Shown: positions 2,029 to 24,918, numbered from the stretch's first letter. The stretch is 24,918 nt of DNA from an uncultured Candidatus Rokubacteria bacterium (GCA_963805625.1 CAWDVE010000002.1:1-24918), one strand, 5' to 3'. Program-made: numbers and translations. Notes: generated by a model not told the origin, from the sequence alone.

Positions 2029-2054
2029 CGGTCAGCCCGCGGCCATGACGTCCT

Positions 2055-3022: not shown

Positions 3023-3079
3023 TGGCCTCGGGTCGCTCCCGTCCGTCGGATACGAGGCTACTCCCGCTGAGGCGGATAG

Positions 3080-5772: not shown

Positions 5773-5803
5773 GCCGTATCCCGGCCACCATGCGAGGCGG
5801 GCG

Positions 5804-7525: not shown

Positions 7526-8242
7526 GTGAGTACAGCACACGAGAAATACATCGCCCTGCAGCGCCACCGCAACGCGACCCCGCTGGCGCTCGATCCCCGG
7601 ACCACCGCGCTCGTGATCGTCGACATGCAGGAGTACTTCCTGAACCCGGCCTCGCCGTTCTCGCAGGCTTGCGAGCGCGTCATCCCGGGCGTGCTGGGAC
7701 ACTTCCAGGAGCGCGGCCGCGGGGTCGTCGAGCCGTCGCTCCGGCGGCTGCTGGACTTCTTCCGAACCATTCGGCTGCGGATCGTCTACACCACCGTGGC
7801 CTCCGAGCTACCCGATGGCAGTGACCTGATGCCGATCTTCCAGCAGCGTAACGCCGCCAACCGGGCGGCGGTGGGCGACGCCGCCATTCCCCCGCGAGCC
7901 GACGCCTGGGCCCGCATCGTCGCGGCGCTCGAGCCGCGACCGGGGGAGCTCGTGGTGAACAAGACGACCTACGGCACGTTCAACTCGACGGGGCTCGATC
8001 ACGCCCTCCGCTCGCTCGGGATCACCTCGCTGGTCGTGGGCGGGGTGGTGACGAACGTCTGCGTGGAGACGACGGCCCGGGATGCCGCCGATCGCGGCTA
8101 CGACGTCGTGCTGCTCGATGACGGATGCGCGGCGTTTTCCCCGGAGATCCACGAGGCCACGCTGCTCTCGTTCCAGGGCCCCTTCGGCCGCGTGCGAACG
8201 ACCGACGAGGTGCTCGCGCTCCTGCAGGGCGGCGCGGACTAG
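7526..8242 (+). CDS. Isochorismatase-family cysteine hydrolase
   Basis: VIVDMQ (Asp), NKTTYG (Lys), TNVCVETTARDA (Cys). AGGAGG RBS before GTG. Confidence 0.92.
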   Translation: MSTAHEKYIALQRHRNATPLALDPRTTALVIVDMQEYFLNPASPFSQACERVIPGVLGHFQERGRGVVEPSLRRLLDFFRTIRLRIVYTTVASELPDGSDLMPIFQQRNAANRAAVGDAAIPPRADAWARIVAALEPRPGELVVNKTTYGTFNSTGLDHALRSLGITSLVVGGVVTNVCVETTARDAADRGYDVVLLDDGCAAFSPEIHEATLLSFQGPFGRVRTTDEVLALLQGGAD

Positions 8243-8602
8243 TCTTCTAGGAGCAGACGTAATACTGGGTGTACGCGACCCAGGTGACGGTGTTCCCCCC
8301 ACCGGTCGGTGTGCCAGTACTGGACCGGATACCAAACTGCGCGACATTATCTGGGTCGAGGGGCGATCGGCTAGTGCGGATGAGTTCGGCAGAGTTTGGC
8401 ACTGGCATGTCACCGAGATTCGAGCCTCGCGAGACCCGGCGCCTCCATCCGACTAGGGAACGACCGAAGGACGGCAGGCGTGAGTTGACGAAGTTAGCCC
8501 ACTTCATACAAGGCACGGCAAAGCACGTTCCGGCCTCTGGTCCTCCCCGAATCTTTCCTTCTCCTGCGAGACATCGCAACGCCGGGCAGAGCGAGCCCGC
8601 CG

Positions 8603-8920
8603 TCACGGGGCGATTGTAACCGGGGCGCCCATAGCCACCAGCTCGTCCACGCCACGGATGATGCCGAGCGCCCGAATCAGGCCCGGCGTGGCCGAGAAGC
8701 CGACAGTCCGCAGGAGCTGGCCGACATCCGCCCGCGTCTTGAGGGAAGCGAGGGCGGCCAGGAGCAGACCCACGATCCCCGTTGCCCGCATCGCGCCGAG
8801 ACCGCCAGCCACGCTGGCGAGTACCACGACCAGCATGGCCCGAGGGGTCGCCGTGGCATCGTTCTCAACCTCTTCGTACGTCGCGGCGTCGAGCTTGGCC
8901 GCACCGAGCATCCGCTCCAT
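8603..8920 (-). pseudogene. Yip1-like membrane protein, internally deleted and 3'-truncated
   Basis: RMLGAAKLDAATYEEVEND and LLRTVGFSATPG are recognisable. A TM helix expected between ALASL and KTRAD, and the C-terminal helices, are missing. Confidence 0.6.
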
Positions 8921-9141
8921 CAGGCCCGCTATTCGCCGCCTCCCATCTGGCTCCCAGTCGGGTGCACACCTCGCGCGGCCCGTGCGCCGCGCCGGGTCGA
9001 TTCTCTCCCACCGCCGACACCGATCGCCGGGATCTTTAGGGCCAAGGGTGGTCCCAAGGTTGATGACCAGCCGGAACCCCGTCGGCTGCTCGACGGACAG
9101 ACTGGCTGGAACGCGCAGCTAGATACCCTCGACGCCTCGCA

Positions 9142-9549
9142 TCAGTGGTGTGCCACGTCAAGGAACGGGGTTTCCGTATCGCTCACGTAGAAGATTACGA
9201 CCCGCATGGGCTCGGTGCTGCTGCGGTTGTAACCGGTCATCTTCACTTGCGGCGGCTCCACTATCGCTTGACCGGCCTTGGCCGTAACGGGCGGGCGCCC
9301 CTCCATCTCCAACGTGAATGCGCCTTCCAAGACGTAAACCGTCACGGGAAAACGGTGCGTATGGAACGGCGTCGCCTCACCAGGCTTGAGGGTCGCCGCG
9401 ATGACTCGCACCTCCTGCTTCTCGCCCTTGGGCATGCCTTCCACGATTTCTCTCAGCAGCGGTGGCGGCGGGCCCGGCGCTTGCGCCACCAACGTCAACG
9501 GAGCCGTCAAAGCCACGAGGGCGAACGTGATCCCAATCGGCTTACGCAT
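9142..9549 (-). CDS. Secreted cupin domain protein
   Basis: Signal peptide, cupin motif [27 protein letters not shown] before ATG 9549. Confidence 0.88.
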   Translation of the reverse strand: MRKPIGITFALVALTAPLTLVAQAPGPPPPLLREIVEGMPKGEKQEVRVIAATLKPGEATPFHTHRFPVTVYVLEGAFTLEMEGRPPVTAKAGQAIVEPPQVKMTGYNRSSTEPMRVVIFYVSDTETPFLDVAHH

Positions 9550-9814
9550 TGCGTGATCTCCCTTTGTACCGACGTGGTTAGACATCGGGCCGAATCATCG
9601 AGCCACTTGGGCGACGGGATCCGCCCACTCCGCCGCGGTTGGGCTCAGGAGCGCCCACCAGCTCGCTCGGTTGAGCATTCGCGACCGTGGGCCTCCGCGG
9701 GGTGCCGGCCCACGATTCAACGGGGAAGGTAGACCATCGTCTTGCTCTGGGTAGCCAGTGGGCGCGAGGATGCCTGGCGGACGAACCGGGGAGCGTTGCC
9801 GCCCCCCGATTATG

Positions 9815-9986
9815 TGGTGAGCCGTGAAAGAATCGAACCTTCAACCTACTGATTAAGAGACCGACGGCGGGCGAGACCCACGCCAATCCAATCCAACGCA
9901 GACCAAGTGCTTTCATGGGTTTCGCCCGCCCTCTTCTGGGCCTGGTTGGGCAGGCACGTGTAGGTTCTCGGACAATTCTCGGACAC
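9815..9986 (-). repeat. att-like site copy 3: tRNA-Lys(CTT) 3' half (9815-9859) plus arm
   Basis: Reverse complement CTCTTAATCAGTAGGTTGAAGGTTCGATTCTTTCACGGCTCACCA, with no D-arm or 5' acceptor strand. Right flank matches 26-153; left flank GCCGCCCCCCGA matches 24862-24873. Confidence 0.9.
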
Positions 9987-10132
9987 CGCTCCACCGATCC
10001 TCGCCTTTCTTGGCTCACCCGAGGAGCCGGAGGCGCTTCGGACCACTACTCGCGCCCGCAGGCGAGACTGCTCTGACCCCGTAGCGGTCACCTTCCTTCG
10101 CGGCAATCACGCGGTGCCACGCGCTGGAGCGA

Positions 10133-10822
10133 CTACTTCAAGTTCTTGTCGAGGAACGCCATCGTGCGCTGCCATGCGGTCTCCGCCGCCTTGGCGTTGT
10201 ACTCCGCGAACGGCAGGATGTTCTTGCCGACCCGCGTCTCGTTCGCGAAGGCGTGGTTCGCCGCGTAGCGATGGAACTCGAACCTGACCTTCGCGTCCTT
10301 CAGTTTCTTCTCCAGCGCGTCCACGCCGGAAATCGCGAAGACCGGGTCGTCCGTCGCGAAATGCCCCAGGATCGGCGCCTTGATCTTGGACGGGTCCACG
10401 TACTCGAGCGGTGGATAGCCGTACCAGACCACTGCCGCGTCGGCCTCCGGCACATGGACTGCCGATAGCACCGTCAGCGCGCCGCCCATGCAGAATCCGG
10501 TGACGCCCACCTTCGCGCTCTTGCCCTTCAGGTGCTGCACCGCGCCGCGCACATCCTGTCCCGCCGCGTCGCCGAAATTCAGGCCCTTCATCAGGTGCTC
10601 GGCTTCTTCGGCCTCCACCGTGACCTTGCCGCGGTAGAGGTCCGGCACCAGCGCGCGGTAGCCGGCCTTCGCCAGGCGATCGGCCACGCCCTTGATCTGG
10701 TCGTTCAGGCCCCACCACTCCTGGATCACCACGATGCCCGGTGCGCCGGCCGCCGCGGGCTCGGCTAGGTAGCCGGAGACGCTTTTTCCGTCCGGCCGCT
10801 TGTAGCTGATCATTTGACCCAT
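10133..10822 (-). CDS. Dienelactone hydrolase family protein
   Basis: VIQEWWGLN, GFCMGG nucleophile motif, DD acid, HAF His. GGAGG RBS. Confidence 0.93.
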   Translation of the reverse strand: MGQMISYKRPDGKSVSGYLAEPAAAGAPGIVVIQEWWGLNDQIKGVADRLAKAGYRALVPDLYRGKVTVEAEEAEHLMKGLNFGDAAGQDVRGAVQHLKGKSAKVGVTGFCMGGALTVLSAVHVPEADAAVVWYGYPPLEYVDPSKIKAPILGHFATDDPVFAISGVDALEKKLKDAKVRFEFHRYAANHAFANETRVGKNILPFAEYNAKAAETAWQRTMAFLDKNLK

Positions 10823-10847
10823 GGGATACCTCCATTTACCCTCGATG

Positions 10848-11160
10848 TCATTCCACCACCCGGTCGGCGCGCAACAGGACGGACGGCACCGTGATCCGGA
10901 GCGCCTTCGCTGCTTTCGCGTTGATCACGACTTCGAACCTGGTGGGCTACACGATCGGCAGGTCCCCGGCCTCGACGTATTCGGACACGCCGTTGATGCT
11001 CGGCATGTGATGCTTGCGCGCGCGCTCGGCGAGTCGCCGGCGCTCGGAATAGACGAGCGGGCTGTGCACGACGAATACCCCACCGCGCTCTTTCGTCATG
11101 GCCACGGATGGCTGCGGCCAAGTCCTCTGCATTCTTGATCTCCAGGAGGTACAGCGCAAG
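10848..11160 (-). pseudogene. ABC transporter substrate-binding protein, 3' remnant
   Basis: EYVEAG is joined directly to DLPIV*PTRFEVVINAKAAKAL...LLRADRVVE*. About 30 aa are missing, with an internal stop and frameshifts. Confidence 0.8.
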
Positions 11161-11206
11161 AACCTAGCAAGGGACGCATCGCTCCTGGCTCTAACCAGGG
11201 CGGGAC

Positions 11207-11545
11207 TTAGCCTCCGTGAGACGCATCATGCACGATCAGCCGCCGCCACGCGGTCAGCCCCCGATACTTGTTCGCCGGCGTCAGCGCGACGGTGAGATCA
11301 CCGAGGGCGCGAGCCTGACACGAGAGGAACCACCCGTGCGTCTTTTCTTCCTCCGGGAGAACGGCGGCCGAGCAACGGCCGTGCTCGACCTGCCCGGAGA
11401 TGAGGCGCATCTTGCAGGTGCCGCAGCCGCCCCCTCGGCAACCGAAGGCGACGCTCGCCCCCGATCTGAGGATCGCGCCCAGCACGCTCTCCCCGACGCC
11501 ACACGCGACGACATCGCCGGCCGGGTTCAGCGTGATCGTGTACAC
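11207..11545 (-). CDS. Plant-type [2Fe-2S] ferredoxin, XylT-like
   Basis: GCRGGGCGTCK...FLSCQAR motif; directly downstream of catechol 2,3-dioxygenase. Alternative GTG start at 11596. Confidence 0.88.
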   Translation of the reverse strand: MYTITLNPAGDVVACGVGESVLGAILRSGASVAFGCRGGGCGTCKMRLISGQVEHGRCSAAVLPEEEKTHGWFLSCQARALGDLTVALTPANKYRGLTAWRRLIVHDASHGG

Positions 11546-11604
11546 CCCTGCCCCCGCCAGACGGTCCTCTTCTACATCGCGGGTCAGCGATCGCACGTGA
11601 CGGC

Positions 11605-12519
11605 CTACGTGTAGACGCTCAGGAATGTCTCGTTCAATTCTTGCGAATAGTAGAAGACCGCCGGCCCGATCTCGTCCATCGTCCACTTGATCGCGCGGCA
11701 GTCTGGATCCATCTGATACGAGGTGTAGCCGCCGAACGCCTCAAGCCGGTTGCCGGACGGATCGAAGAAGTAGATCGTGGTACCCCGGGTGATGCCGTGT
11801 CGACCCGGCCCGTAGTCGATCCGGGCCTTGTGCATCGTGAGGATATCCGCGGCGCGGAACAGCGCGTCGGCGGAGTCCACGACGAAGGCGGCGTGATGAA
11901 ACCCTCCCGCCCGCCCCGGGACGATCGCAATGTCATGCGGCGCCGGCCGCTGCCAGAGCCACGCGGCGACGGGAACTCCCTCCGGGTTGACGAGCATCTC
12001 GCTGATCCGGAATTCCAAGACTTCCTGAAAGAACTGAATGGCCTTGGGCGGCTCTGGCGCCGTCACCAGCGTGTGGTCCAGTCTCGGCGGGGCGATGCCC
12101 TTCAGACCTTCCGGCCACGGGGCCGGGTTGACCGTGGGCAGGACATTCCCCGTGTAGTCCATCTCGTTGTAGAGCTCCACCGTGTGTCCGGACGGCGCGG
12201 TGAACCGGAGCGCGCGGCCTCGCCGGTAGTCCTCCGGAATCACATCGTAGGGCACGCTGAACTGTCGGAGGCGACGCTCATAGTAGTCGAGGTCTTCGGG
12301 ATCCACCGTCCGGAACGCGAGCCGAACCATGCCCGCCCGATCGGCTTCGGTCAGCGCGACGGAGTACGCGTGGCGCTCGTCCCACCCCTTGAGGTAGGCG
12401 GTCTTCCCTTCGCGGGCCGTCAACTGCAAGCCCAGGACGTTGAGGTAGTAATCGAGGTCGCGATCGAGATCGAGGCTCCGGATCTCCACGATCCCCAGCC
12501 GAGAGATTCTGTACGGCAT
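11605..12519 (-). CDS. xylE: Catechol 2,3-dioxygenase (type I extradiol dioxygenase)
   Basis: YLKGWDE, PPRLDH, FHHAAF, GPGRHGITRGTTIYFFDPSGNRLE with His/His/Glu Fe ligands. 304 aa; purine-rich RBS. Confidence 0.92.
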   Translation of the reverse strand: MPYRISRLGIVEIRSLDLDRDLDYYLNVLGLQLTAREGKTAYLKGWDERHAYSVALTEADRAGMVRLAFRTVDPEDLDYYERRLRQFSVPYDVIPEDYRRGRALRFTAPSGHTVELYNEMDYTGNVLPTVNPAPWPEGLKGIAPPRLDHTLVTAPEPPKAIQFFQEVLEFRISEMLVNPEGVPVAAWLWQRPAPHDIAIVPGRAGGFHHAAFVVDSADALFRAADILTMHKARIDYGPGRHGITRGTTIYFFDPSGNRLEAFGGYTSYQMDPDCRAIKWTMDEIGPAVFYYSQELNETFLSVYT

Positions 12520-12666
12520 CTCGTCCCCCTTCCTGCATGGCATCGCCCTGCACCGCTATTCACCCGACTCGCCGGCCAGGCGAAGAACCTCCAACCTACC
12601 ACCCGTCCGATCCGGAAAGCGTCGCCGGTCGCTACAACTTCTTCATGCCCGGCGCCTCCTTTCCGG

Positions 12667-12763
12667 AAACCTGCGCGGCCCAAAGCCAGGTTCCTGACTC
12701 CCTCCCGGCCCGGCCGTCAGCCCAGCGGGCGCAATCCCACGGTGGCCGGACTCTAGCGCGCGG
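12667..12763 (-). repeat. ~97 bp conserved non-coding element, copy 1 (candidate promoter plus structured leader)
   Basis: Aligns with 19671-19768 with one indel. TAGAGT -10-like box near its 5' end. Confidence 0.8.
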
Positions 12764-12879
12764 CTCGAGATCGGTGCTAAGACAGCTGAGGTAGGCCGCT
12801 CCGCCGTCCCGACGGAGAGCGAAGCAGGCGCCGACGCAGGGCGGCGGCAGCGACCCCACCCGCCGGCGGGCGATGCGAC

Positions 12880-13453
12880 TCACGTATTCGGCGGTCCGCT
12901 ATTGGCCCTGGGCACGGATGCCGCCCCCGCAGCAAGCGCGAGGACGTCCCGCGTTCCAACGCCGACCGTCGAGGCGACCCGACCATCGGCGCCGACAAGA
13001 ACGGCGGACGGGGTTCCGCGAGCCCCGAACGCCTTCCCCACCGCGAAGCCTTCGTCGAGTACCACGGATGACTGCAGCCCGAGCGCTCGGTTCGCCTCTC
13101 CGTTGCGCGCGAGCGTCGCCCAGCCCACTGGCGAGGAGCGGAGTTGGCCGAAACAGCCACAACTGGGACGCTGGCCCCGGGCAAGGGCCGACCCCATCGC
13201 CGTCGTGAAGGCGAGAAGGAGGCTGAAGACTCCAAGAGCTCCCCCCCAGGCCGAGGCCCGAAACAGAAGCGCGAGGGGCGACGGCTAGCTCAGCCACCGG
13301 GAGCAGCCAGCCGAGCGGCCTCGCCAGCGCCGCCGGGAGCCCGAAGTCCGTCAACGCCTGCCGTGTGCCGGCCCGGTCGAAGAGCTGGGCAACACCCGCC
13401 ACGCCGAAGACACCGGTCAGAACGAGGCGCGAGCCGAGGAGGAGCCAATCCAC
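12880..13453 (-). pseudogene. MauE/DoxX membrane domain fused to a thioredoxin-like (MauD-like) domain; frameshifted and internally deleted
   Basis: RLVLTGVFGVAGVAQLFDR, AELAVA, SCGCFG, TLARNG (MauE), then AFGARGTPSAVLVGADGRVAS (Trx C-terminal half). Extra C near 13275-13278; the CxxC half is deleted near 13098. Confidence 0.8.
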
Positions 13454-13460
13454 GACGCGC

Positions 13461-13559
13461 AGTCTACCCGAAGCCCGCGAACGGGCAAGGGCGTCCCAAA
13501 GCGGGCCCCAAGCGCTCAACCCCCGCCGTTTGACCCCGTCTGCGCGGTCGTGCTACGGT
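13461..13559. promoter_or_regulatory. Candidate back-to-back sigma70 promoters
   Basis: Plus strand: TTGACC (13530-13535), 18 bp, TGc-TACGGT (13554-13559). Minus strand: TTGCCC (13488-13483), 16 bp, TAGACT (13466-13461), 7 nt before GTG 13453 (leaderless-like). Confidence 0.5.
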
Positions 13560-13607
13560 CGCTGCCGAGTCAGACCGTCACTCCCTCCACACCGGGAGGG
13601 ATCCTTC

Positions 13608-14090
13608 ATGAGCCAGGGCCCGACGCAACCGGCGGCGCGGACGAGTGGACTGGTGGTCAAGACGGCGGGCGACGAGGTGCTCGTCTACGACCTCGAGGCG
13701 CACAAGGCCCACAGCGTGAACGGGGTGGCGGCGGCGGTGTGGCGCCGCTGCGACGGCACGCGGGACGCCGCCCGGATCGCGGCTGACCTCCGGGAGGACG
13801 GTGTCGCGCCGGTCACCGAGGAGGCTGTGCGGTACGCACTCGGGGAGTTGGGGCGGGCCCGGCTCCTGGCGGGGCCGATGGCCGGGCCCGGACTGACCCG
13901 GCGGGAGCTTGTGCGGCGGCTCGGCACGGCGGCGGCGGTGGCGTTGCCCCTCGTGACGACGATCGTCGCCCCCACGGCCGCCCAGGCGCAGTCTTGTTTG
14001 CCGCAATTAGCGCCGTGCACCCAGAACTCGCAGTGCTGTTCGGGCTGTTGCGATCAGGTTGCCTGCGGCCCCCCTTCAGACTGCGCATAA
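13608..14090 (+). CDS. PqqD/RRE domain fused to an internal twin-arginine signal and an 8-Cys knottin-like peptide
   Basis: DEVLVYD...AHSVNGVAAAVWRRCDG...IAADL (PqqD fold), LTRRELVRR plus h-region plus AQA, then core CLPQLAPCTQNSQCCSGCCDQVACGPPSDCA. GGGAGGG RBS. Confidence 0.85.
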   Translation: MSQGPTQPAARTSGLVVKTAGDEVLVYDLEAHKAHSVNGVAAAVWRRCDGTRDAARIAADLREDGVAPVTEEAVRYALGELGRARLLAGPMAGPGLTRRELVRRLGTAAAVALPLVTTIVAPTAAQAQSCLPQLAPCTQNSQCCSGCCDQVACGPPSDCA

Positions 14091-14324
14091 CCACTATTCG
14101 CGACATCCGCCTTTTCGCGCCAGACGGTGCGCAGGTGGGAAATCCTGCCCGGCCGCACCCAGCCGCGTGGAACCGTGCATCGCGTCGTCGTTGAGGCCTT
14201 GTCTTGGCGGGAGGAGATCCGCAGCGCGCGGATCGCCGTCGGCGCAGGATGACGCGGGGTCAGGCGGCTTAACGACGAGGTCGCGGCTCGCCCGCGCCCT
14301 CCGAAGCGTGCCGCCCCGGCGGCC

Positions 14325-14695
14325 CTAAGAAACTGCACCCTCGAGCAGCTCGCCGGTTTCGCGATTGACGAGAGCGAGGCCGAGATTGGCGGCGCGCTGA
14401 CGCAAACGGCGAATGACGCGCTGGCGGTGCCGGGCGTCGTACGCGGCGGCTCCCGGATCACGGTAGACCAGGCCATCCTTGAGGGTGCGGTAGACGAGGA
14501 TCGCGAGCTTGCGGGCCGTCGCGGTAATCGCTTTGGCCTTGCCCACCCGGAAGGCCAAGCGGCGATAGAAGGCGCCGAGCGCGGTCTCGGTCCGGCCGAG
14601 GCTCATGGCGGCCATGCGCAGGATCCCCGCGGCGCGGTTGGCGGAAGGCGGCGTCGCAGAGCTGAGGAGGCGGCCGCCGGTGATCTTGTTGTGGG
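14325..14695 (-). mobile_element. IS110-family transposase, 3' fragment
   Basis: NKITGGRLLSS, LGAFYRRL, KAITATARKLAILVY, C-terminal ...GAVS*. The N-terminal DEDD domain is absent. Confidence 0.88.
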
Positions 14696-14782
14696 ACGCC
14701 AGAGTGACCCACAGCAGAGGGAGTGAGCCCCGGAGGCGCCGGTCCCCTCAGCGACGCAGGCCCTCGATGACCGGGGCGAGCA

Positions 14783-14948
14783 TCTCTGGCGATCGAGGCC
14801 GGGCGCCTGACCGCTCGCCCACATATCCCAAGCCTCCGAGAGGCCCCGCCGCACGAAGGCTTCATGGAGTTCGGCGAGTAATCTCCCCGCAGATTATCAG
14901 GATGCGCTGGACTTCGAGTATCACTCCGGTTGGCGACGCGGTGAAATG
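14783..14948 (+). pseudogene. Tyrosine integrase internal remnant
   Basis: Reads SLAIEAGRLTARPHIPSLREAPPHEGFMEFGE, then after a short frameshifting deletion NLPADYQDALDFEYHSGWRRGEM, containing the box I (S/T)GxRxGE catalytic Arg motif. Not in the ORF track. Confidence 0.72.
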
Positions 14949-14974
14949 CCGAGCGGTGACGAGAGGCCCGACGC

Positions 14975-15530
14975 TCACCGTCCAGGCAAGCCCAGCAAGG
15001 AGCGGGTCACCATCGCTTCGCTGTAGTGGGCCCAAGTGTGGGTGAGCCCCAGATACCCAAGGAAGAATCCCTTACTCCGGTCGGGTAGCTCGGCCCAGTA
15101 TCCCTCTCCCCAGCGTCCAGCCTCCCGGAACATCCGGTCCGTCTCGACCACCCGGATGTAGGTTGGATCGTTCACCGCGTCCAGATCCTCTGGGTGTAGA
15201 TCCCCGACGATCGAGCGGGTCCGCTGCTCGAGTCGTCCCCAGTAGGCGCGCAGCCCGTCCAGGTCGACCCTCGCGCTCAGCCCGGCCACCTCCTCGGCAG
15301 TCATCCCCGTTCCCAGATCGGCATCCGGCACGTTCAGGCGCCGCCCCCACCCTTCTTCGAAGAAGAGCTGCGGGCGATGGCCGACGAAGCGGCTGACCCC
15401 GAGGTCTTCCACGCGCGCGATGTGCCAGACAATCCAGGCGATGGAATTCACCCCCTCGACCGGGCGAGAGCGAATCTGATCATCGGTCAAGCCGCTCAGG
15501 AGCCCCTCGGCCACGGCCCGGTGAACGGGC
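14975..15530 (-). CDS. DinB-family protein, probably 5'-truncated
   Basis: NSIAWIVWHIARVED and THTWAHYSEA His motifs. No convincing start codon or RBS. Confidence 0.72.
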
Positions 15531-15797
15531 TCGGGCCGAGGGCAGAGGTTAGCGGGCGCACACCGGTGCTCGCCTCGGCGCCTGAGCATCCGCCGCTGCT
15601 TGGTTGGGACGTCAGCCGCGGGGCCCGCTCCTCCGGGAGCTTGCCGGGCCGGCCCGCGCCCGCTAGACTCCGGGCACGCACGATGGGTACGTAGCGCGGC
15701 CTTCTCCCTCTCGCGCGCCCGCGTCCACGGCCGTGGCGCGGGCGACGGTGCGCGAGCGGGCCGCCATCGACGGTCCCGCGAAACTCGAGGACACGCC

Positions 15798-17324
15798 ATG
15801 AACATCGGCTCCCTGCTCCCCCGGCACGCACGCTTTCGAGGCGATCGCACGGCGCTCGTCGTCGGTGAGCGGCGCTTGAGCTATCGGCAGCTCAATGTCT
15901 ATGTGAACCGGCTCGCCAGCGCGTTGCTCGCCGCTGGCCTGGGGAAGGGCGACAAATTCACCACCGTGCTCGGCAATGGCCTCGAGCTCATGGCGGCCTA
16001 CTGGGCGGCGGCCAAGACCGGCATTGTCATTGTCCCCGCAAGCCCGCTCCTCCAGGAGGCGGGGTTGGCCACGTTGCTGCGCGATTCCGATACGGTCATG
16101 GTGCTCGCTCACGTCTCCTTCGCCGACACCCTCGACCGCATCCGGGGCGCGCTGCCGCTCATCGGCGCCGACCGGTACATCCTCGTGGGTGCCGGCGGCA
16201 ACCGGCTCGGTTTCCGCGGTTACGACGGCTTCCTCGCCGCAGGCTCTGAGGCCGAGCCGCCGGAGGCTGACCTCGCCGATAACGACGTGTTCAATATCAT
16301 GTACTCGAGCGGGACGACGGGACTGCCCAAGGGCATCGTCCACACCCACTATGTGCGGGCGATGTACTGCATGATCTTCGCCCAGACGTTCCGCATCGTT
16401 CCGGAGAGCATCGTGCTCCACGCCGGGTCCATCGTCTTCAACGGGGCCATGGTCGATCTCATGCCGTGGATGTTCACCGGGGGCACCTACATCCTCCACG
16501 AGGCCTTCGATGCCGGGCGAGTGATCGAGACCATTCATGCCGAACGGGTGACCCACATGATCATGGTGCCGGCCCAGATCGTCGCCGTGCTGAATCACCC
16601 GGCCTTCGTCCCCGAGAAGCTCGCGAGCCTCGAAATGCTCCAGAACCTCGGCGCCCCCCTCCACCTCGAGTTTAAGCAGCGGATCAACGCGCTCCTGCCC
16701 GGCCGCTTCTACGAGCTCTACGGGCTGACGGAAGGCCTGATGACCGTCCTCGACAAGCAGGATGCCATGTCCAAGCTGGGTTCGGTCGGCTGCCCACCGC
16801 CGTTCATGGACATCAAGATCCTGCGGGAGAACGGGACCGAGTGCGGCCCCGGCGAAGTGGGGGAGATCTGCGGCCGGAGCCCGTGTCTCATGTCCGGCTA
16901 TTACAAGCGCCCGGATCTCACCGCGAAGGCGATCGTCGACGGGTGGCTCCACTCGGGCGATGCTGGCTATCTGGACGAGGACGGGTACCTCTTCCTCGTC
17001 GACCGCCTCAAGGACATGATCATCTCGGGCGGCGTCAACGTGTATCCGAAGGACATCGAAGAGGTGGTCGTCCGGCACCCGGCTGTGCGGGAGGCCGCCG
17101 TGTTCGGCGCCGCCGATGCTAGGTGGGGCGAAGTGCCAGTGGCGGCCGTGGTGCTAAAGAAGGGGGCCGCGGTCGGGCGGGACGACCTCATCGCCTGGAC
17201 CAACGGACGCGTAGCCGCCAAGTTCCAGCGTATTGCCGACGTCGTCTTCTTCGAAGAGTTCCCGCGCAATGTGGCCGGCAAGACCCTGAAGCGGGAGATG
17301 CGCGACACTTACGCGCGCCCCTGA
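15798..17324 (+). CDS. Acyl-CoA synthetase (AMP-forming, class I adenylate-forming enzyme)
   Basis: YSSGTTGLPKG, YGLTE, GWLHSGD, DRLKDMIISGG, PRNVAGK. GAGG RBS; 508 aa. Confidence 0.95.
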   Translation: MNIGSLLPRHARFRGDRTALVVGERRLSYRQLNVYVNRLASALLAAGLGKGDKFTTVLGNGLELMAAYWAAAKTGIVIVPASPLLQEAGLATLLRDSDTVMVLAHVSFADTLDRIRGALPLIGADRYILVGAGGNRLGFRGYDGFLAAGSEAEPPEADLADNDVFNIMYSSGTTGLPKGIVHTHYVRAMYCMIFAQTFRIVPESIVLHAGSIVFNGAMVDLMPWMFTGGTYILHEAFDAGRVIETIHAERVTHMIMVPAQIVAVLNHPAFVPEKLASLEMLQNLGAPLHLEFKQRINALLPGRFYELYGLTEGLMTVLDKQDAMSKLGSVGCPPPFMDIKILRENGTECGPGEVGEICGRSPCLMSGYYKRPDLTAKAIVDGWLHSGDAGYLDEDGYLFLVDRLKDMIISGGVNVYPKDIEEVVVRHPAVREAAVFGAADARWGEVPVAAVVLKKGAAVGRDDLIAWTNGRVAAKFQRIADVVFFEEFPRNVAGKTLKREMRDTYARP

Positions 17325-17378
17325 GCCGGCCCGTCCCTCGAGCACGGCCGTGGTGGCGCGAAGACCACGGCGCGTGGG

Positions 17379-17490
17379 ATGCCGTTCGGCCCCTATCGCG
17401 GCCTCGAGCTCACCGAGCTGCCCGACGTCCGTGCGCTGGAGCATCTGCGCGAGCCGCCGCGCGGCGCGGTCGCGCACGAGTACGTCTCCC
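17379..17490 (+). pseudogene. Possible remnant of a small phage-type MPFGxYRG protein (DUF3820-like)
   Basis: MPFGPYRGLELTELPD...LREPPRGAVAHE resembles the family N-terminus; short and degraded. Confidence 0.35.
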
Positions 17491-17542
17491 CGCTTCGGAT
17501 ACGTCTCGGCCGTGCTCGTCCCGCTCACGCCCGATGTGCTAG

Positions 17543-17912
17543 CGCTCCGCGACGTGACCGGAAACTGGACCGGCATCGACGCGCGGCCGGTGGCGGTGAA
17601 GAACTTCCTCGCCTACACCCTGCGACGCCTCGGCACCGACTACGTGGACGTCTACCGTCCGGGCCGGCTGGATCCCGCCGTGCCGATCGAGGAAACGGTC
17701 GGGGCGATCGCAGGGCTGGTGAAGTCCGGCCTCGTCCGCCACGTCGGGCTCTCGGAGGTCGGTTCGGCCACCATCCGGCGCGCGCACGCGGTGCACCCAA
17801 TCGCGGATCTCCAGATCGAGTACTCGCTGATCTCGCGCGGCATCGAGTCCGACATCCTTCCCACGTGCCGCGAACTCGGGATCGGCGTGACGGCCTACGG
17901 GGTGCTTTCGCG
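17543..17912 (+). pseudogene. Aldo/keto reductase internal fragment
   Basis: LRRLGTDYVDVY, PIEETVGAI, VGLSE, LQIEYSL, GIGVTAYGVLSR. Both ends are missing. Confidence 0.88.
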
Positions 17913-19633
17913 CAGGCTCATGACGAGGCAGGGCATGGCGCGCAGCTCGACCTCGAAGCGCTCCCAGTAGGCCTTCTCGAAGGCGGCCGAGAGCTCCTCT
18001 CGCTTGAAGTCGGTGCGGGCGATGGGCACGGTGAGCACGTGGGTCTGCCCGGCGAACTGCATGTCGGCCTCGTGCCGGACGGTGACCGTCTCGATCTCGA
18101 CGCCCTCGGCCGCGAGCAGGGTCCGGCCGCGCTCGATCTGGTCGGCGAAGACCGTGCGGGCGGCGCCGACGTCCATGCGCAGGAGGTCCTGGTTGATCGT
18201 CTTCACGAAGTCGGGGCGCACATCGGCCACCAGACACCCCAGGGCCGAGGTGATCCCGGGACGCGTCGGCACCAGCACCCTGGGGATGGCCAGTTCGCGG
18301 GCCAGGGCGGCGGCGTGCAGCGGGCCGGCGCCGCCGAACGCGAACAGGACGAAATCGCGCGGGTCGTACCCGCGCTGCAGCGACACCAGGCGGATGGCGC
18401 CGGCCATCTTGTCATTGGCCACGCGCACGATGGCGGCGGCGACCTCCTCGGGACCCAGGCCGAGATGGGCGCCGATCTTCTTGTCGAGGCGGTCGCGCAC
18501 CGCGGCGAGCTGCGCGGCGCCCTCGACGCCGAGGAGTCCGGCGGGGTTGAGCCGCCCGAGGAGCAGGTTGGCGTCGGTGGTCGTCGGCTCCTCGCCGCCC
18601 CGCCCGTAGCAGATCGGCCCGGGCTCGGCCCCCGCGCTCTGCGGTCCGACCTGGAGGATGCCGGCCGAGCTCACGCGGGCGATCGAGCCGCCCCCGGCGC
18701 CGATCGTGTGGATGTCGATCATCGGCACGCGGACCGGCAGGCCGTAGCCCATCTCCTTGTCGGCGCTGATGGTGGGACGACCGTCGCGGATGACCCCCAC
18801 GTCGAAGCTGGTGCCGCCCATGTCACAGCTGATGACGTCGCGGTATCCCGCCGCCGCGGCGGTGTAAGCGGCGGCCTTCACCCCGGCCGCCGGCCCGGAC
18901 ATGAGCGTGTTGACGGCATGGCGCGCCGCCACCTCGACCGACATGGTGCCACCGTTGCCTTGCATCACCAGGAGCTCGCGCCGGTAACCCTGTCGCGCCA
19001 GCTCGCCGGCAAGGCGCCGGAGATAGCGATCGATGATCGGCTGCACGAAGCCGTTGAGCCCACCGTCACGTACGGGTTCGGCCACGACGTGGCCACCAGA
19101 TCGCGGACCCGACGCTCGTGACCGTCGTTGAGATAGGCGTGGATGAAGTGGATGACGAGGGTCTCGACGCCCTGCGCGCGGAGCGACTCGGCGGCGCGGC
19201 GCACCTCGCCCTCGTCGAGCGCGATGACCACCTGGCCCTCGGCGTCGACCCGCTCGGTCACCTCCAGGCGCAGCTCGCGCGGGATGAGGGGCTCGAACGT
19301 GCCCTTGAGGCCGTACGGCGTGGGTCGCGTGCGCCGGCCAAGCTCGAGTACGTCGCGGAAGCCGCGCGTGGTGATGAGGCCCGTGCGGGCGCCCTTGCGC
19401 TCGAGCAGCGCGTTGGTGGCCGTCGTGGTGCCGTGCACGATCACCCGGAGTTGGCTTGGCGCGACCGAGGCCTCGCGGAGCGCGGCGAGGACGCCGCCGG
19501 CCTGGTTCCGGGCGGTGGTGGGCACCTTGGCGACGCGGACGTCGCCGCCGGCCTCGTCGACGAGCACGAGATCGGTGAACGTCCCGCCCACGTCGCCGCC
19601 GACGAGCGTGGTCTCGCCCGGCTGTCGACTCAC
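17910..19633 (-). pseudogene. Hydantoinase A / 5-oxoprolinase family; internal frameshifting deletion and 3' truncation
   Basis: DVGGTFTD, HGTTTATNALLERKG, SGPAAG, DMGGTSFD, GAGGGSIA. YVTVGS is joined out of frame to LNGFVQP near 19057; the gene runs into the AKR fragment. Confidence 0.9.
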
Positions 19634-19670
19634 AACAGCATCTCGATGGCGGACGAGACCAGAAGGAACT

Positions 19671-19768
19671 GAAGCTGGGCGGTCCAAAGTCAGTTTCCTG
19701 CCTCCCTCGCCGGCCCCGCCGTCAGCCCAGTGGGCGCATTCCCAGGGTGCCGGGACTCTAGCGCGCGG
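19671..19768 (-). repeat. ~97 bp conserved non-coding element, copy 2
   Basis: Homologous to 12667-12763; ends ~38 bp before the hydantoinase GTG. Confidence 0.8.
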
Positions 19769-20005
19769 CAGGCCGGACCGAACCTCGCCTGGGGGGGAGT
19801 TCTCCGTGTGGCACCGGGGGCACTGCCTGCCAGGCCCTCCAGTGCGCCAAAGGCTAGTCCGGTGGAGAGGGGGCGTCAAGCATGGAAGCCGCCGGAACAG
19901 CCTGGGCGCTGATTCCGAGCCATTGACACCATCCTGCATCCGATGTGACACTCAACCACCAACCGCTCCCCGAGCGCTCGAGTGCCGAGGCTGCAGGACA
20001 CCGCC

Positions 20006-21354
20006 ATGCGCGTCCAGTTCTGGGGCACCCGCGGCTCCCTGGCGAAGCCGGGCCCGACCACGCTGCAATACGGCGGCAACACCGCGTGCGTGGAGGTGCG
20101 CACGGCCAACGGGACACTCATCGTTCTGGACTGTGGGACCGGCGCGCATGGCCTGGGGCTCGCGCTCGCGGCGGCGGCCGAGCAGCCTGTGCGCGGTCAC
20201 CTCCTGATCACGCACACGCACTGGGACCACATCCAGGGTTTCCCGTTCTTTGCGCCCCTCTTCGTCCGCGGCAACGAGTGGGACATCTACGCGCCCGGCG
20301 GGCTCGGTCAGCAGCTCGAGGTGACACTGGCGGGGCAGATGGAGTACACGTACTTCCCGATCACCCTCTCGCAATGTGGCGCGGCGATCCGATTCCATGA
20401 TCTGGGCGAGGGCAGCTTCGAGATCGGGGCGCTGCGGGTCACCCCACGGTACCTGAATCATCCGGCGCTCGCCCTCGGCTACCGGCTCGACGTGGACGGC
20501 GCCGTCGTCGTGTACGCCGTGGATCACGAGCCTCACACGCGCGACCCTGCTGGCCCCGCCCCCGGCGCCCGAGGTCGGTCACCCACGCATCGGGAGGATC
20601 AGCGGCATGTGGACTGGCTTGCCGGGCGGACCTGGTCATCCACGACGCGCAGTACACGGTGGAGGAGTATTCCCGACGGATGAACTGGGGCCACACCCCC
20701 GCCGAGTGGGCGGTGGACTACGCCGTGGCCGCGGGCGCCAAACGCCTGGCCCTCTTTCATCACGACCCACAGCGCGATGACGCGGCGCTCGATCGGCTCC
20801 TGGAGGTGTGCCGCCAGCGCGCGGCCGACAGCAGCCTGGACGTCCTGGCGGCGGCCGAGGGGCAGGTCGTGGAGCTGGCGAGGAGAGGGATCGACGCCGT
20901 CCGTCCCGAGGGGCCGGCCGCCTCCGTCGTCCCGGCGGGAATCTCGCCCGCAGGGGCCGCCACCATCCTGATCGCCGACGACGATCCCACGATCGTCCGG
21001 CTCCTGACCCTCACCCTCGCGCCGCAGGGCTTCCGGCTGCTGACGGCCAGCGACGGGGAGACGGCGCTTCGCATGGCCCGCGCGGAGAGACCTGCACTCG
21101 TCCTCCTCGACTGGCAGATGCCCGGCGCCGACGGCATCGCGGTCACGCGTGCGCTGCGCGCCGACACCGACGCCGACCTGCGCGACGTGCCCGTCGTACT
21201 CATCACGGGCTTGGCGGGCGGCGAGAATGCCGCGATGGGCTTCGAGGCGGGGGTGACGGACTACCTCACCAAGCCGTTCCAGCCGTCGCACGTGCGGACG
21301 CGCGTGCGGACCTGGCTGCTGCGACGCGGCACGGGCCCCCGTGGCGGGAGGTGA
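20006..21354 (+). pseudogene. MBL-fold metallo-hydrolase fused to a C-terminal receiver domain; single -1 frameshift near 20625
   Basis: FWGTRGS, YGGNTAC, THTHWDH, DHE, then in another frame DLVIHDAQY, WGH, FHHDP and REC motifs IADDD, LLDWQMP, YLTKPF. One missing G in GCCGGGCGGAC restores the frame; this could be a sequencing error. Confidence 0.85.
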
Positions 21355-21357
21355 CGG

Positions 21358-22029
21358 GAACATCTTCAGGAGGTCCTCGTCGGGCTCGCGGATCTCGGGG
21401 CTGAAGAACTCCATCACCCCGAGGAACCCGGCGGGGCCCACGATCGGGAAGCCGAACGCTCCGTGGAGCCCCTCCTTGGCCGCGTACCGGGCGCGCGGGA
21501 AATTCGAATCCTTGACGACATCCGGAATCCAGGCGGCCGTGCCGCTCTTCCACACGCGCCCCGGCAGGCCCACCCCGGGGGAGAAGGTCACGCGACGGTT
21601 CACGCCCACGAACTCGTCCAGAGCGCGGGGCGGCGCGATCCACATCTCGACACAGCGCAGCACGTTCGCCTCGGGGTCGACGCTCCAGCGCGCGCCCATG
21701 ACCCAGTCCAGGCTCTCCCCGACGGCCTGGAGGATCCGCGGCATCGCCTCCGCGAGGCTCCCCGCCTCGGCCAGGATGTGGGTCGTCGCGTACTGGGCGG
21801 CCAGCCGTGTCTCGCCCGCCTTGCGCTGGCGCTCCGCGCGGTTCAGCGTGCGAGCGGTGACCCAGATGAGGATGGTGAAGAGCAGAATGGTCAGCACCAC
21901 CACGGCGGCGAGATCGACCGCCGTGCCCATGAACCCGGCTCGCTCGGCGACATGCCTTAGCCAGCCGAGGCCCGGCGGGATGAAGATCGCGGCCGGAAGG
22001 AGCCGCCGTGCGAGGACGCCCCCCGCCTC
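21358..22029 (-). pseudogene. Hybrid histidine kinase, piece B (2 TM + GAF)
   Basis: [16 protein letters not shown]...GLPGRVW...FGFPI...MEFFSPEIREPDEDLLKMF; open frame with no start or stop of its own. Confidence 0.85.
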
Positions 22030-23912
22030 GAGAGCGCCATCGCCCCCAGCATGGCGCTCAACGACTTGAGCGCATGGGCCGCCTGTCGCATCCCTGACGC
22101 ATCGTTCCGGGCGGCGGCGTCCCGCAGCGCGGCCAGGAACCGCGGGGTTCCGTCGACGAACGCGGCGATGACCTGGCGCAGTCCCTCGGCCCCGCCGAGC
22201 TCGGCCTCAAGCTCACGCAGCACGCGGTGATCGAGCGTGGCCGAGCTCGAGGACACCGCCGTCGACGGCTCGGTCGTGCCGCGGCGGCTCGTGACGGGCG
22301 GACACTGGGCCAGGGCGCGGCCCAGCCGGTCCAGGCCGACAGGCTTCACGACGTAATCGTCCATGCCGGCGGCGAGGCACGCCTGGCGGTCCCCCTCCAT
22401 CGCCTCGGCCGTCATCGCGATGATCCGGGGACGCTCTCCGGCGGGCCATCGCTCGCAGATGGCCCGCGTGGTCTCGAGGCCGTCCATCTCCGGCATCTGG
22501 ACGTCCATGAGAATCACGTCATAGGCGGATCCCGAGAGCCGCGCGAGCACTTCGCGCCCCGAGGCCGCCAGGTCCGCGTGGTGGCCGAGCCGCTCGAGGA
22601 GCCGCAGGGCCACCTGCTGGTTCGCGGGATTGTCTTCCGCCACCAGGACCCGGAGCGGAACCGGCGCCGGGCGGTCCCGAGACGGACCGGGAGGCGCCGG
22701 CGCCGAGCCCGGGCGCCCGCCGAGGATCTCGCAGAGCCGGTCCTGGAGCATCGAGAGCCTCACGGGCTTGGACAGCACGGCCGTGAAACCCACCTCCCCA
22801 AGCTCGACGGGGAGGGTCTGTCCGATCGACGACAGCAGGATGAGCGGAACTGAACGGGCTCCCGGGAGCTGGCGGATCGCCTTGGCCAGGGCGATCCCGT
22901 CCATCCCCGGCATCTGGTAGTCCACCAGGGCGAGGTCGTAGGGATCGCCCTGTCGGATCCACTCGAGCGCCTGGGTCGGCGAATCCGTCTGGCGGGCCCG
23001 GAGACCCCACTTCTCCACCTGGAACTGGAGGATCCGGCGGTTGGTTCGATTGTCGTCCACGATCAGAACCCGCTTCCCGGCCAGTACGGACGCGCGACCC
23101 GGCGCGGGAGCGGCCGCGGGGGGCGGGGCGGACTCGGCGACGATCGTGACGTGGAACGTGGACCCCTTGCCGACGTCGCTCTCGAGCCAGATGCGCCCCC
23201 CCATGAGTTCCGCAAGCCGCTTGGAGATGGCGAGGCCGAGGCCGGTTCCGCCGTAGCGGCGGGTCGTCGACGCGTCCACCTGGCTGAAGGACTGGAACAG
23301 GCGATCGAACCGATCCGAAGCGATCCCGATGCCAGTGTCGCGGACGGCGAAGTGGACCTCATGCCGCTCGCCCCCGAGCGGCATAGCGGAGACGTTGACG
23401 TCGACCTCGCCGGCGGGCGTGAACTTGACGGCGTTGCTCAGGAGGTTCACCAGGATCTGCCGGACGCGCGCGGCATCGCCGATGAGCACGGCCGGGACCG
23501 AGTCCTCCACGAGGTAGGTGAGCTCCAGGCGCCTCTCCTGGGCCTTCGGGGCGACCAGCTGTACGGACTCCTCGACGCAGACCAGGGGCCCGAACGGCGC
23601 CTGCTCCAGATCGAGCCTCCCCGACTCGATCTTGGAGAAGTCCAGGATGTCGTCGATGATTGCCAGCAGGTGGTCGCCGCTGGCCCGAATCGTCTCGGCG
23701 AACTCCCGCTGCCGGCCGTCCAGCGCGGTGTCCAGGAGCAGGCTCCCCATCCCGATGATCGCGTTCATCGGCGTCCTGATCTCATGGCTCATGTTGGCGA
23801 GGAATTCGGACTTGGCCCGCGTGGCCGCTTCGGCGGCGATCCGGGCACGCTCGAGCTCGGCCTCCGCCCGTTTCCGTTCGATGAACTGGCCGACCTGGCC
23901 GCCGACGCCGTC
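22029..23912 (-). pseudogene. Hybrid histidine kinase, piece C (HisKA-HATPase-REC-REC-most of Hpt)
   Basis: [14 protein letters not shown]...[33 protein letters not shown], two receiver domains, [17 protein letters not shown]. Confidence 0.92.
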
Positions 23913-24019
23913 GACCGAGTGCGGGGAGTTCGAGCGCGTCAGCCGAGCGGGGACCGTCGTCGATGCCGTTGCCGTGGCGGCGATCGAGACCCTCTACCGC
24001 GCCGCCGCCCGCGCCTTCG
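23911..24019 (+). pseudogene. Hybrid histidine kinase, piece D (last Hpt helices), inverted
   Basis: [36 protein letters not shown] continues piece C in frame through a shared TCGA. Confidence 0.75.
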
Positions 24020-24668
24020 TCACCACCCGCATCAGGCCCTGGTCGGGACGCGCGCAGAGGGTCCCGACGCTGAGCGCGAGGAACGCGAGCGCCGTCGGCA
24101 GCGCCATCGGAATGTAGCGGGCGACGCCGTAGAGTTCGCCCACGCCGTACACGTACCCGAGCACGGAGGTCAGGGCGACTGCGGCGGGGGCGAGGACGAG
24201 GACCTGGGCCGGCCGGTAGCGGCGCCGCGGCTCCCAGTCGAGGAGGCCGAGCGCCGCGCCGAGGAGGAGGAAGCCGAGCCCGGTGTTGGGCGCGATCCGG
24301 TTGCCCCCGAGGCGGGGACGGAAGAGGATCTGGTCCAGCCCGAGGTTGGCGCCGATCGCGTACCCGGCCAACGTGACGGCGCCGATCAGCGCCAGGACGA
24401 CGGCCGCCACCCGTGCGGCGCGGCCGAACCCGGAGCCCCGGGCGGACGCGAACGGCAGGGACAGCCACAAGGCGACCGCCGCCAGCACAAAGCCGAGCGC
24501 CGTCAGTGGGTTCATGGCGACCCGGCCCGGCAGGATGCTGGTGAGGACGGCGACGTCGAGCTGCCATCCGAGGAGGACCGCCCCGCCGCCCAGGACGCCG
24601 AGCACGCTCGCCGCCCGTGACACGGCCAGGAGCCGCGAGACTCGGCGCGCGTCGACGACCGGCTTCAT
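24018..24668 (-). pseudogene. Hybrid histidine kinase, piece A (N-terminal multi-TM sensor)
   Basis: AMNPLTALGF, RIAPNTGLGF, PMALPTALAF repeats, ending RPDQGLMRVVT. This motif is normally followed by xxxAGGxxARRLLP, which starts piece B. Confidence 0.85.
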
Positions 24669-24878
24669 GGCGGCTTCATGGCTCGGCGGGAGCGCCGCGG
24701 GTCGACGGCCGAAGCAGAAGCTGCGCGCCTCGCCCCGGGCGCTGGCGGCGACGACTCCGCGTCCCCAGGTCCGACGTGAAGCCCCGGCCTAAGCTCCGAG
24801 CCACCCTCCACCGGAGCGGTGCCCGAACATAGATCGACTGTAGCCGGTCCTCGTAGGCGGCGCCGCCCCCCGACTGTG

Positions 24879-24918
24879 TGGTGAGCCGTGAAGGAATCGA
24901 ACCTTCAACCTGCCGATT
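24879..24918 (-). tRNA. tRNA-Lys-like 3' half at the window edge (att copy 4, or the 3' end of the intact tRNA)
   Basis: Reverse complement AATCGGCAGGTTGAAGGTTCGATTCCTTCACGGCTCACCA has a perfect T-stem and CCA. The anticodon and 5' half lie outside the window. Confidence 0.6.

What the first reader, a model, noticed from the sequence alone, without database searches (positions are those of the whole stretch)
21358..24668. A hybrid histidine kinase gene scrambled into four pieces (A, inverted D, C, B) with TCGA-type junctions and almost no loss
Seen: A (24668-24018, 217 aa) ends LMRVVT. B (22029-21358, 224 aa) starts [11 protein letters not shown] and ends LLKMF. C (23912-22029, 628 aa) starts [10 protein letters not shown] and ends AMALS. 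D (23914-24018, opposite strand, 35 aa) reads TECGEFER...ARAF. Rejoining B-C gives ATG tTC GAc and C-D gives CTC TCG Acc, both in frame and both TCGA. The present D/C and C/B joins are TCGA (23911-23914, 22028-22031) and the A/D join shares TCG. The result is a ~1100-aa TM-GAF-HisKA-HATPase-REC-REC-Hpt protein missing only a few codons. Reaching this order needs at least three inversions that reuse breakpoints, or one shatter-and-religate event. Inference: either cleavage at a palindromic TCGA (TaqI-like) followed by end joining (chromothripsis-like), or shufflon-like reversible rearrangement, or a library/assembly artefact. Caveat: TCGA is common here and many internal sites are intact.
Basis: partly seen in the sequence, partly recalled or inferred. 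Interest (0 to 1): 0.85.

Follow-up and report, generated by a model that had tools for sequence, protein, structure and literature searches.

The report
Shattered, re-stitched soil bacterial kinase gene
A signalling gene of an uncultured soil bacterium is broken at five places within 3.4 kb and its four pieces are rejoined in a new order with only nine bases lost; scrambled and intact versions both occur in environmental sequencing runs, so this is likely a recent natural break-and-mend accident, a gene-sized counterpart of the chromosome shattering known from cancer.

Summary
The scramble is real, and larger than reported. Relatives show the order X-A-B-C-D-Y, where X is the upstream metallo-beta-lactamase-fold/receiver gene and Y the last 22 codons. 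The window reads X,-B,-C,+D,-A,Y: five breakpoints in one closed chain, 9 nt net loss, microhomology of 2,3,4,3,1 nt, and at least four inversions if stepwise. Run contigs with no mismatch bridge 4 of 5 new joins: three in X1 (possibly the source sample), one in X4 (another sample and study). A ~99.6%-identical strain in X2 carries ancestral joins. Three of five breaks fall on TCGA (P about 0.001-0.016), but 32 of 35 sites are intact. I found no TaqI-type endonuclease, no shared recombination site and no nearby recombinase. The genome encodes Ku and LigD. None of 502 other genes tested shows a mixed-strand split. Best reading: one recent cut-and-rejoin event that inactivated the kinase, mended likely by end joining; the cutter is unknown. 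It is not a shufflon. The scan noted a similar 3.4-kb case in another genome (e1-6592823, not checked here).

The parts
19982..21354 (+). Gene X, metallo-beta-lactamase-fold + receiver domain; upstream operon partner of the kinase in relatives; left flank of the scrambled block. It has a one-base frameshift at 20623.
   Evidence: Pfam Lactamase_B_2 and Response_reg; X directly upstream of A in 28 of 29 related loci; runs X3 and X4 have an extra G at 20623 in a G run
21358..21359 (.). New join N1, X | inverted B end; 2-nt microhomology (GA)
   Evidence: bridged by X1 contig 21282-21732, 0 differences, depth 6.1; crossed by only 16-17 letters in X2
21358..22030 (-). Piece B: membrane helices + GAF domain (ancestral residues 220-443)
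22028..22030 (.). New join N2, B start | C end; 3-nt microhomology (TCG) inside a TCGA
   Evidence: no listed run contig bridges it
22028..23914 (-). Piece C: HisKA-HATPase-REC-REC and first half of Hpt (ancestral residues 444-1071)
23911..23914 (.). New join N3, C start | D start; 4-nt microhomology TCGA
   Evidence: bridged by X1 contig 23764-24168, 0 differences, depth 4.3
23911..24019 (+). Piece D: second half of Hpt (35 aa)
24017..24019 (.). New join N4, D end | inverted A end; 3-nt microhomology (TCG)
   Evidence: bridged by the same X1 contig
24017..24710 (-). Piece A: 42-nt X-kinase spacer, start codon at 24668 and the N-terminal membrane region (residues 1-217)
   Evidence: spacer boundary from the X5 loose end and from G003/G019
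24710..24710 (.). New join N5, A start | Y; 1-nt microhomology (C)
   Evidence: bridged by X4 contig 24574-24835, 0 differences, depth 4.3
24711..24779 (+). Y: last 22 codons and stop of the kinase, left in place; right flank
   Evidence: X3 contig joins 24017 to 24710
24880..24918 (-). att-like copy of the 3' half of tRNA-Lys(CTT) closing the ~15-kb cargo unit that holds the operon (a similar copy opens it at 9816)

Best explanation
This is the scar of what was likely one recent event: an intact 1128-aa membrane-GAF-HisKA-HATPase-REC-REC-Hpt kinase gene is broken at five places within 3.35 kb, and the four loose pieces and two flanks were rejoined end to end in a closed chain with 9 nt lost, likely by Ku/LigD-type end joining helped by 1-4 matching bases. 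Shown: the ancestral order, the five joins, the 9-nt loss, the microhomologies, the presence of both alleles in runs, and the presence of Ku and LigD in the genome. Inferred: that the breaks were simultaneous; that end joining mended them; that the cuts were sequence-biased. On the last point, with so little loss the ends had almost no room to search for matches, so the matches were likely set by where the DNA broke: five of six cut points can be placed at C^GA of the coding strand. I give about even odds between a nuclease that prefers (T/A)CGA and unspecific clustered breaks. Predicted result: a dead allele, since no full-length kinase can be read, carried clonally as dispensable cargo in a tRNA-Lys island array.
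For: Closed single chain using both ends of every break, each piece present once, net loss 9 nt. A stepwise route needs at least four inversions, i.e. eight cuts on five sites with exact reuse, yet the sites share nothing beyond the core (11.3/24 vs null 11.4, P = 0.60). No copy gain and no templated insert: a suspected 6-nt insert at N5 proved to be ancestral spacer. Ku lies divergently beside a 925-aa LigD with phosphoesterase, ligase and Prim-Pol domains; a second Ku and three more Prim-Pol genes are present. S. meliloti NHEJ rejoins compatible and blunt ends faithfully (78-98%) and inserts a cassette into a break, in the reverse orientation in 26 of 285 cases (PMC6379672, passages). Real: 4 of 5 joins bridged by mismatch-free run contigs, N5 in a different sample and study. 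Recent: X2 contigs with ancestral joins differ by 4 letters in 1067, and the pieces hold no stop or frameshift. Local: 0 of 502 other orthologues show a mixed-strand split.
Against: Ku/LigD presence does not show that they acted; I did not test how common they are in relatives. No cause of five breaks in 3.35 kb was found: no RE_TaqI, TCGA not avoided, 32 of 35 sites intact. The uniform ^GA placement is 1 of 95 placements that rebuild the window without duplication. No listed contig spans the whole block and N2 is unbridged; X1 may be the source sample and also shows an ancestral B|C joint, with only 20 letters on one side. X4 holds scrambled N5 together with ancestral B|C, which fits two strains but also a partial intermediate. 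Four of five joins are inversion-type, as serial inversions would also give.
Confidence: 0.6

Rival explanations
1. Serial inversions by a relaxed recombinase or by topoisomerase subunit exchange: four or more inversions between 2-4-nt CG/GA cores, each reusing a join made earlier, fixed one after another.
For: 28 four-step routes exist. Four of five joins are inversion-type and three have a CG core that fits either orientation. X4 shows N5 with ancestral B|C, as an intermediate would. The genome has 24 tyrosine- and 9 serine-recombinase matches.
Against: Needs three exact reuses among 35 TCGA sites with no distinguishing sequence. No recombinase on C2, C7 or C20. No intermediate join appears among the listed joints or loose ends (tables cut). 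No rearranged copy among 35 related loci or crossing matches in 182 other genomes of the order.
Confidence: 0.13
2. One replication pass with five microhomology-primed template switches (FoSTeS/MMBIR, chromoanasynthesis-like).
For: Microhomology at all five joins. Complex inversions with 3-30-bp microhomology arise in starving E. coli and are read there as repeated template switches (PMC3161906, passages).
Against: Those E. coli events carry duplications; here every piece is present once and each switch would have to stop within 0-9 nt of an earlier take-off point. No templated insert.
Confidence: 0.12
3. Library or assembly artefact (proximity ligation, amplification chimera, consensus error).
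For: The genome is a metagenome bin with a likely homopolymer error nearby (20623). The library type is not on record. The N5 junction pattern was not found in metagenome contigs (near genomes may be left out). X1 may be the source sample.
Against: Junction words have depth 4-6 in contigs built independently of this assembly. N5 is bridged in X4, a different sample and study code. No genome-wide scrambling (0 of 502), which a cut-and-ligate library would be expected to give.
Confidence: 0.08
4. Programmed, reversible shufflon-like switch of the kinase.
For: Ancestral and scrambled joins occur in the same runs (X2, X4), and contigs start or end exactly at the 24710 breakpoint in X2 and X6.
Against: No inverted repeats at the breakpoints, no adjacent recombinase, 9 nt are lost so exact reversal is impossible, the scrambled order gives no full protein, and the ancestral joins sit on contigs with SNPs, i.e. 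another strain.
Confidence: 0.04

Closest known systems
Chromothripsis / chromoplexy of eukaryotic chromosomes (PMC3861665; section 7 and passages read)
   Same: Clustered breaks; each fragment used once; both ends of every break joined in a closed chain with almost no loss; single-event logic.
   Different: 3.35 kb and five breaks instead of megabases and tens of breaks; no lost segments or copy-number oscillation; one replicon; a bacterium.
Bacterial Ku/LigD non-homologous end joining, S. meliloti (PMC6379672; passages read)
   Same: Faithful joining of compatible or blunt ends and capture of a fragment in either orientation; Ku and LigD are present in this genome.
   Different: Shown there for one break and one added cassette in the laboratory; the authors call NHEJ-made accidental rearrangements in bacteria 'so far undescribed'. 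Here four fragments are reordered in a wild strain, with no direct proof that NHEJ acted.
Complex microhomology rearrangements of starving E. coli (PMC3161906; passages read)
   Same: Several new junctions in one locus, inversions, short microhomology.
   Different: Those are tied to amplification and inverted duplications of 5-43 kb; this one is copy-neutral and reciprocal.
Intragenic invertons and shufflons (10.1101/2023.03.11.532203; passages read; shufflon features recalled)
   Same: Inversion of DNA inside a coding sequence.
   Different: Those need inverted repeats and an invertase and are reversible; here there are no repeats beyond 4 nt, no local recombinase, and bases are lost.

Membership tests
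Hybrid histidine kinase (membrane-GAF-HisKA-HATPase-REC-REC-Hpt), Rokubacteria orthologue group | Domain set and collinear full-length homologues | tested here: met
   Pfam; 72 of 72 four-piece homologues collinear; inferred ancestral frame 1128 aa
Chromothripsis | Clustering of breakpoints | tested here: met
   5 breaks in 3.35 kb; 0 mixed-strand splits in 502 orthologues, 683 kb
Chromothripsis | Each fragment used once; derivative can be walked head-tail | tested here: met
Chromothripsis | Random order and join orientation | tested here: inconclusive
   4 inversion-type, 1 duplication-type, 0 deletion-type joins; too few to test
Chromothripsis | Many (10 or more) oscillating copy-number changes, interspersed loss | tested here: not met
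   No segment lost beyond 9 nt; criterion from PMC3861665
Chromothripsis | All joins on one molecule | not testable with these tools
   Only run contigs were available and none spans the block; the assembly contig holds all five
Chromoplexy | Closed chain of balanced joins, both ends of each break used | tested here: met
   J1-J3-J4-J2-J5-J1, one cycle
Chromoplexy | Several chromosomes involved | tested here: not met
   All breaks lie in one gene and its spacer
Shufflon / intragenic inverton | Shared inverted recombination sites at the breakpoints | tested here: not met
   (11.3/24 vs null 11.4)
Shufflon / intragenic inverton | Recombinase beside the locus | tested here: not met
   None in the window or on C2, C7, C20; one acting from elsewhere is not excluded
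Shufflon / intragenic inverton | Both orders in one clone | tested here: inconclusive
   Both occur in X2 and X4, but ancestral joins are on contigs with SNPs
TaqI-type restriction scar | Every break at TCGA | tested here: not met
   3 of 5
TaqI-type restriction scar | Cognate endonuclease and site avoidance in the host | tested here: not met
   No PF09573 match; one TaqI_C domain of unknown specificity on C25; TCGA O/E 1.22. Other enzyme families were not searched.
MMBIR/FoSTeS (chromoanasynthesis) | Copy gains or templated inserts at joins | tested here: not met
Bacterial NHEJ product | Ku and LigD encoded in the genome | tested here: met
Bacterial NHEJ product | Product depends on Ku/LigD | not testable with these tools
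   Needs genetics in a culturable Ku/LigD host

The most novel reading that the evidence does not exclude
Soil bacteria with Ku/LigD undergo a recurring, gene-sized 'micro-chromothripsis': a nuclease biased to (T/A)C^GA cuts a patch of about 3 kb (here almost exactly one gene) several times at once, and end joining re-stitches the pieces nearly without loss. This would be an unrecognised engine of domain shuffling whose products spread clonally. The similar 3.4-kb case noted by the scan in another genome (e1-6592823, unchecked here) would be a second product.
Probability: 0.25. Interest if true: 0.82.

Novelty: new variant of a known kind. Interest (0 to 1): 0.6.

Why it matters
Bacterial rearrangements are usually put down to homologous recombination, mobile elements, site-specific recombinases or template switching. 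A five-break, copy-neutral closed chain resolved to the base, with a 99.6%-identical intact allele beside it in nature, is a direct example of all-at-once shatter-and-stitch in a wild bacterium. In 9 literature searches (listings and abstract starts, open-access library only) I found no description of such a case in bacteria, and PMC6379672 (2018) calls NHEJ-made accidental rearrangements in bacteria undescribed. The allele itself is probably a dead gene. Its value is as a marker of a process that can be counted in long-read soil genomes and reproduced in Ku/LigD model bacteria.

Tried and rejected
(1) An 8-nt templated copy of C's start at N5: rejected; the X5 loose end and G003/G019 show it is ancestral spacer. 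(2) Exact N5 junction pattern in metagenome contigs: 0 matches; the tool may leave out near genomes, so this is no evidence of absence. (3) Same scramble in other species: no match crosses N3 or N4 among the listed matches in 182 other genomes of the order (one G012 match starts 17 nt early, but G012 is collinear). Related loci: A>B 35 of 35, B>C 25 of 25, C>D 8 of 8, X>A 28 of 29 adjacent among 73 loci, the one miss being a partial alignment of A. (4) Genome-wide scrambling: 779 ORFs called in 61 G003 stretches (1.22 of 6.7 Mb); 502 non-control ORFs passed the filters; none split on mixed strands; one long gene had same-strand disorder at ~72% identity, which I read as repeated modules without checking; the control locus was flagged. 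(5) Other scrambles in the island array: DNA searches of window 1-9800, 9800-20700 and C7 1-17000 in 25 relatives showed none in the listed rows; the rest of C7 and C20 was only scanned by Pfam. (6) Hidden recombination site, TaqI gene, local recombinase: none. (8) Small word shares in X7-X20 were not used as evidence. (9) No structure or complex prediction: it would not bear on the question.

Full report
Setting. The window is the whole contig C2 of a 7.27-Mb, 28-contig, ~69% GC genome. Its closest homologues carry Ca. Rokubacteria / Methylomirabilota names. Large contigs and a likely homopolymer error suggest a long-read bin; this is my inference and no library record was seen. The kinase operon is cargo in a ~15-kb unit between att-like copies of the 3' half of tRNA-Lys(CTT) at 9816 and 24880. 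No such copy was found in the fetched stretches around the orthologous operon of five relatives.

Observation. Pfam gives GAF_2 in B and HisKA, HATPase_c, two receivers and half an Hpt in C. Among the best 120 proteins found with B, 72 match all four pieces and all 72 are collinear A-B-C-D; the A|B junction reads VVT-SD-EAGG, so two residues are missing, while B|C and C|D abut. At DNA level G003, G012, G019, G030 and G040 have the order X-A-B-C (D too where detected). Over 73 related loci, adjacency held for A>B in 35 of 35, B>C 25 of 25, C>D 8 of 8 and X>A 28 of 29 loci that could be scored.

True anatomy. Run X3 shows all five ancestral joints, and X2 and X3 supply the four letters missing between A and B. 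A loose end in X5 and the G003 and G019 sequences fix the spacer. The inferred ancestor encodes 1128 aa, like its homologues, and is 9 nt longer than the window. The five new joins have microhomologies of 2, 3, 4, 3 and 1 nt and need no added base. Both ends of each break are used, in one cycle J1-J3-J4-J2-J5. The shortest stepwise history is four inversions, by 28 routes.

Is it real? Of 24 runs listed, 20 hold part of the stretch; I laid six. X1 contigs with no differing letter bridge N1 (21282-21732, depth 6.1) and N3 plus N4 (23764-24168, depth 4.3); X1 may be the source sample and is not counted as independent. X4, with another sample and study code, bridges N5 (24574-24835, 0 differences, depth 4.3). 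X2 crosses N1 by only 16-17 letters, below the tool's 31-letter rule, so it is a hint. In one search an X2 contig starts and an X6 contig ends exactly at 24710, as a fork between two alleles would make them (inference). N2 is not bridged by any listed piece and no piece spans the block. X2 also holds ancestral A|B, B|C and C|D on contigs that differ from the window by 4 letters in 1067; X4 holds ancestral B|C; X1 shows an ancestral B|C joint with only 20 letters on one side. So an intact allele about 99.6% identical exists, and the event is recent. In X3 (about 98% identical) the ancestral order runs on into the att-like repeat, so the scramble happened after the operon reached the array. A screen of 502 G003 orthologues (683 kb) found no other mixed-strand split in this genome, while the control locus was flagged.

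What chose the breakpoints? Three of five ancestral breakpoints are TCGA; A|B has ACGA twice, 7 nt apart; X|A is GGGA|GGCC, 6 nt from an intact TCGA. With random cuts, 3 or more of 5 on TCGA has P = 0.0011 (0.016 for any palindromic 4-mer) and total microhomology of 13 or more has P = 0.0056; the tests overlap and the motif is post hoc. One placement puts all cuts just before GA of the coding strand (C^GA five times, G^GA once), with a 7-nt unit lost at A|B and 2 nt at X|A; it is 1 of 95 placements that avoid duplication. Against a TaqI-like host enzyme: 32 of 35 sites in the block are intact, TCGA is over-represented in the genome (O/E 1.22), and PF09573 has no match; one TaqI_C domain of unknown specificity lies on C25. 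The breakpoints are no more alike than random positions (11.3 vs 11.4 matches in 24), and no tyrosine or serine recombinase lies on C2, C7 or C20.

Mechanism. Every join ends where another begins, to within 0-9 nt. That is expected if physical fragments existed and were ligated. It is hard to get from template switching, which in E. coli gives duplications (PMC3161906, passages), or from four inversions that reuse featureless sites. The genome has Ku beside a 925-aa LigD (phosphoesterase, ligase, Prim-Pol), a second Ku and three further Prim-Pol genes. In S. meliloti NHEJ rejoins restriction ends faithfully and captures fragments, sometimes reversed (PMC6379672, passages). I therefore favour one multi-break event mended by end joining (0.6); the cutter is unknown. 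Rivals: serial inversions 0.13, template switching 0.12, artefact 0.08, programmed switch 0.04. The predicted outcome is a dead kinase: A ends seven codons into inverted D, C has no in-frame start before its phospho-histidine motif, and B runs into antisense X.

Comparison. It works like chromothripsis or chromoplexy: clustering, single use of fragments and a closed chain are met; the copy-number and multi-chromosome features are not (PMC3861665, section 7 and passages). I therefore do not file it as a member. It fails the tests for an inverton or shufflon (10.1101/2023.03.11.532203, passages; shufflon features recalled). Nine searches of the open-access library showed no bacterial case of this kind in their listings; subscription papers are not covered, and no supplements were read. 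The scan's own notes hold a similar 3.4-kb, seven-cut case in another genome (e1-6592823) and a five-piece intron patch (e1-9520361); I read these after forming my view, did not check them, and count them as leads only.

Verdict. Observation confirmed and extended; interpretation partly supported. A real, recent, local, almost lossless five-break rearrangement that likely kills a dispensable kinase. New variant of a known kind; interest 0.6, rising to about 0.8 if it proves to be a recurring process.

Noticed in passing
window 1-20, 7058, 9816, 24880; G000 C7 (9 copies), C20 (3 copies), C12:5135-5210 (the tRNA gene): At least 15 att-like copies of the 3' half of tRNA-Lys(CTT), most beside a GC hairpin and many beside a conserved ~170-bp element, separate cargo blocks of 0.6-15 kb; no tyrosine or serine recombinase was found on C2, C7 or C20. 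Related repeats occur in other genomes of the genus. It looks like a tandem island or cassette array whose integrase lies elsewhere.
   Followed up: partly
window 20623: Gene X is frameshifted in a G run; runs X3 and X4 have the extra G. Likely a consensus error, or a strain-specific slip.
   Followed up: partly
window 8741/8742: A small membrane-protein gene (8603-8920) lacks about 63 nt relative to its paralogue on C10 and to G012, with no clear microhomology.
   Followed up: partly
window 12880-19951: Several apparently truncated or split cargo genes: MauE-like, aldo/keto reductase fragment, hydantoinase A in two frames, and a transposase-like fragment at 14325-14615 (label from memory, no Pfam match).
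   Followed up: no
window 12668-12764 and 19672-19769: A ~100-bp repeat present twice in the window and on several other contigs; REP- or IS-end-like.
   Followed up: no
window 24659-24680: An 11-nt tandem duplication at the kinase start codon; absent in X3, and of varying form in G003 and G012.
   Followed up: no
window 3422-3895: A 228-bp internal duplication (92% identical) in the trypsin-like gene 3080-4741.
   Followed up: no
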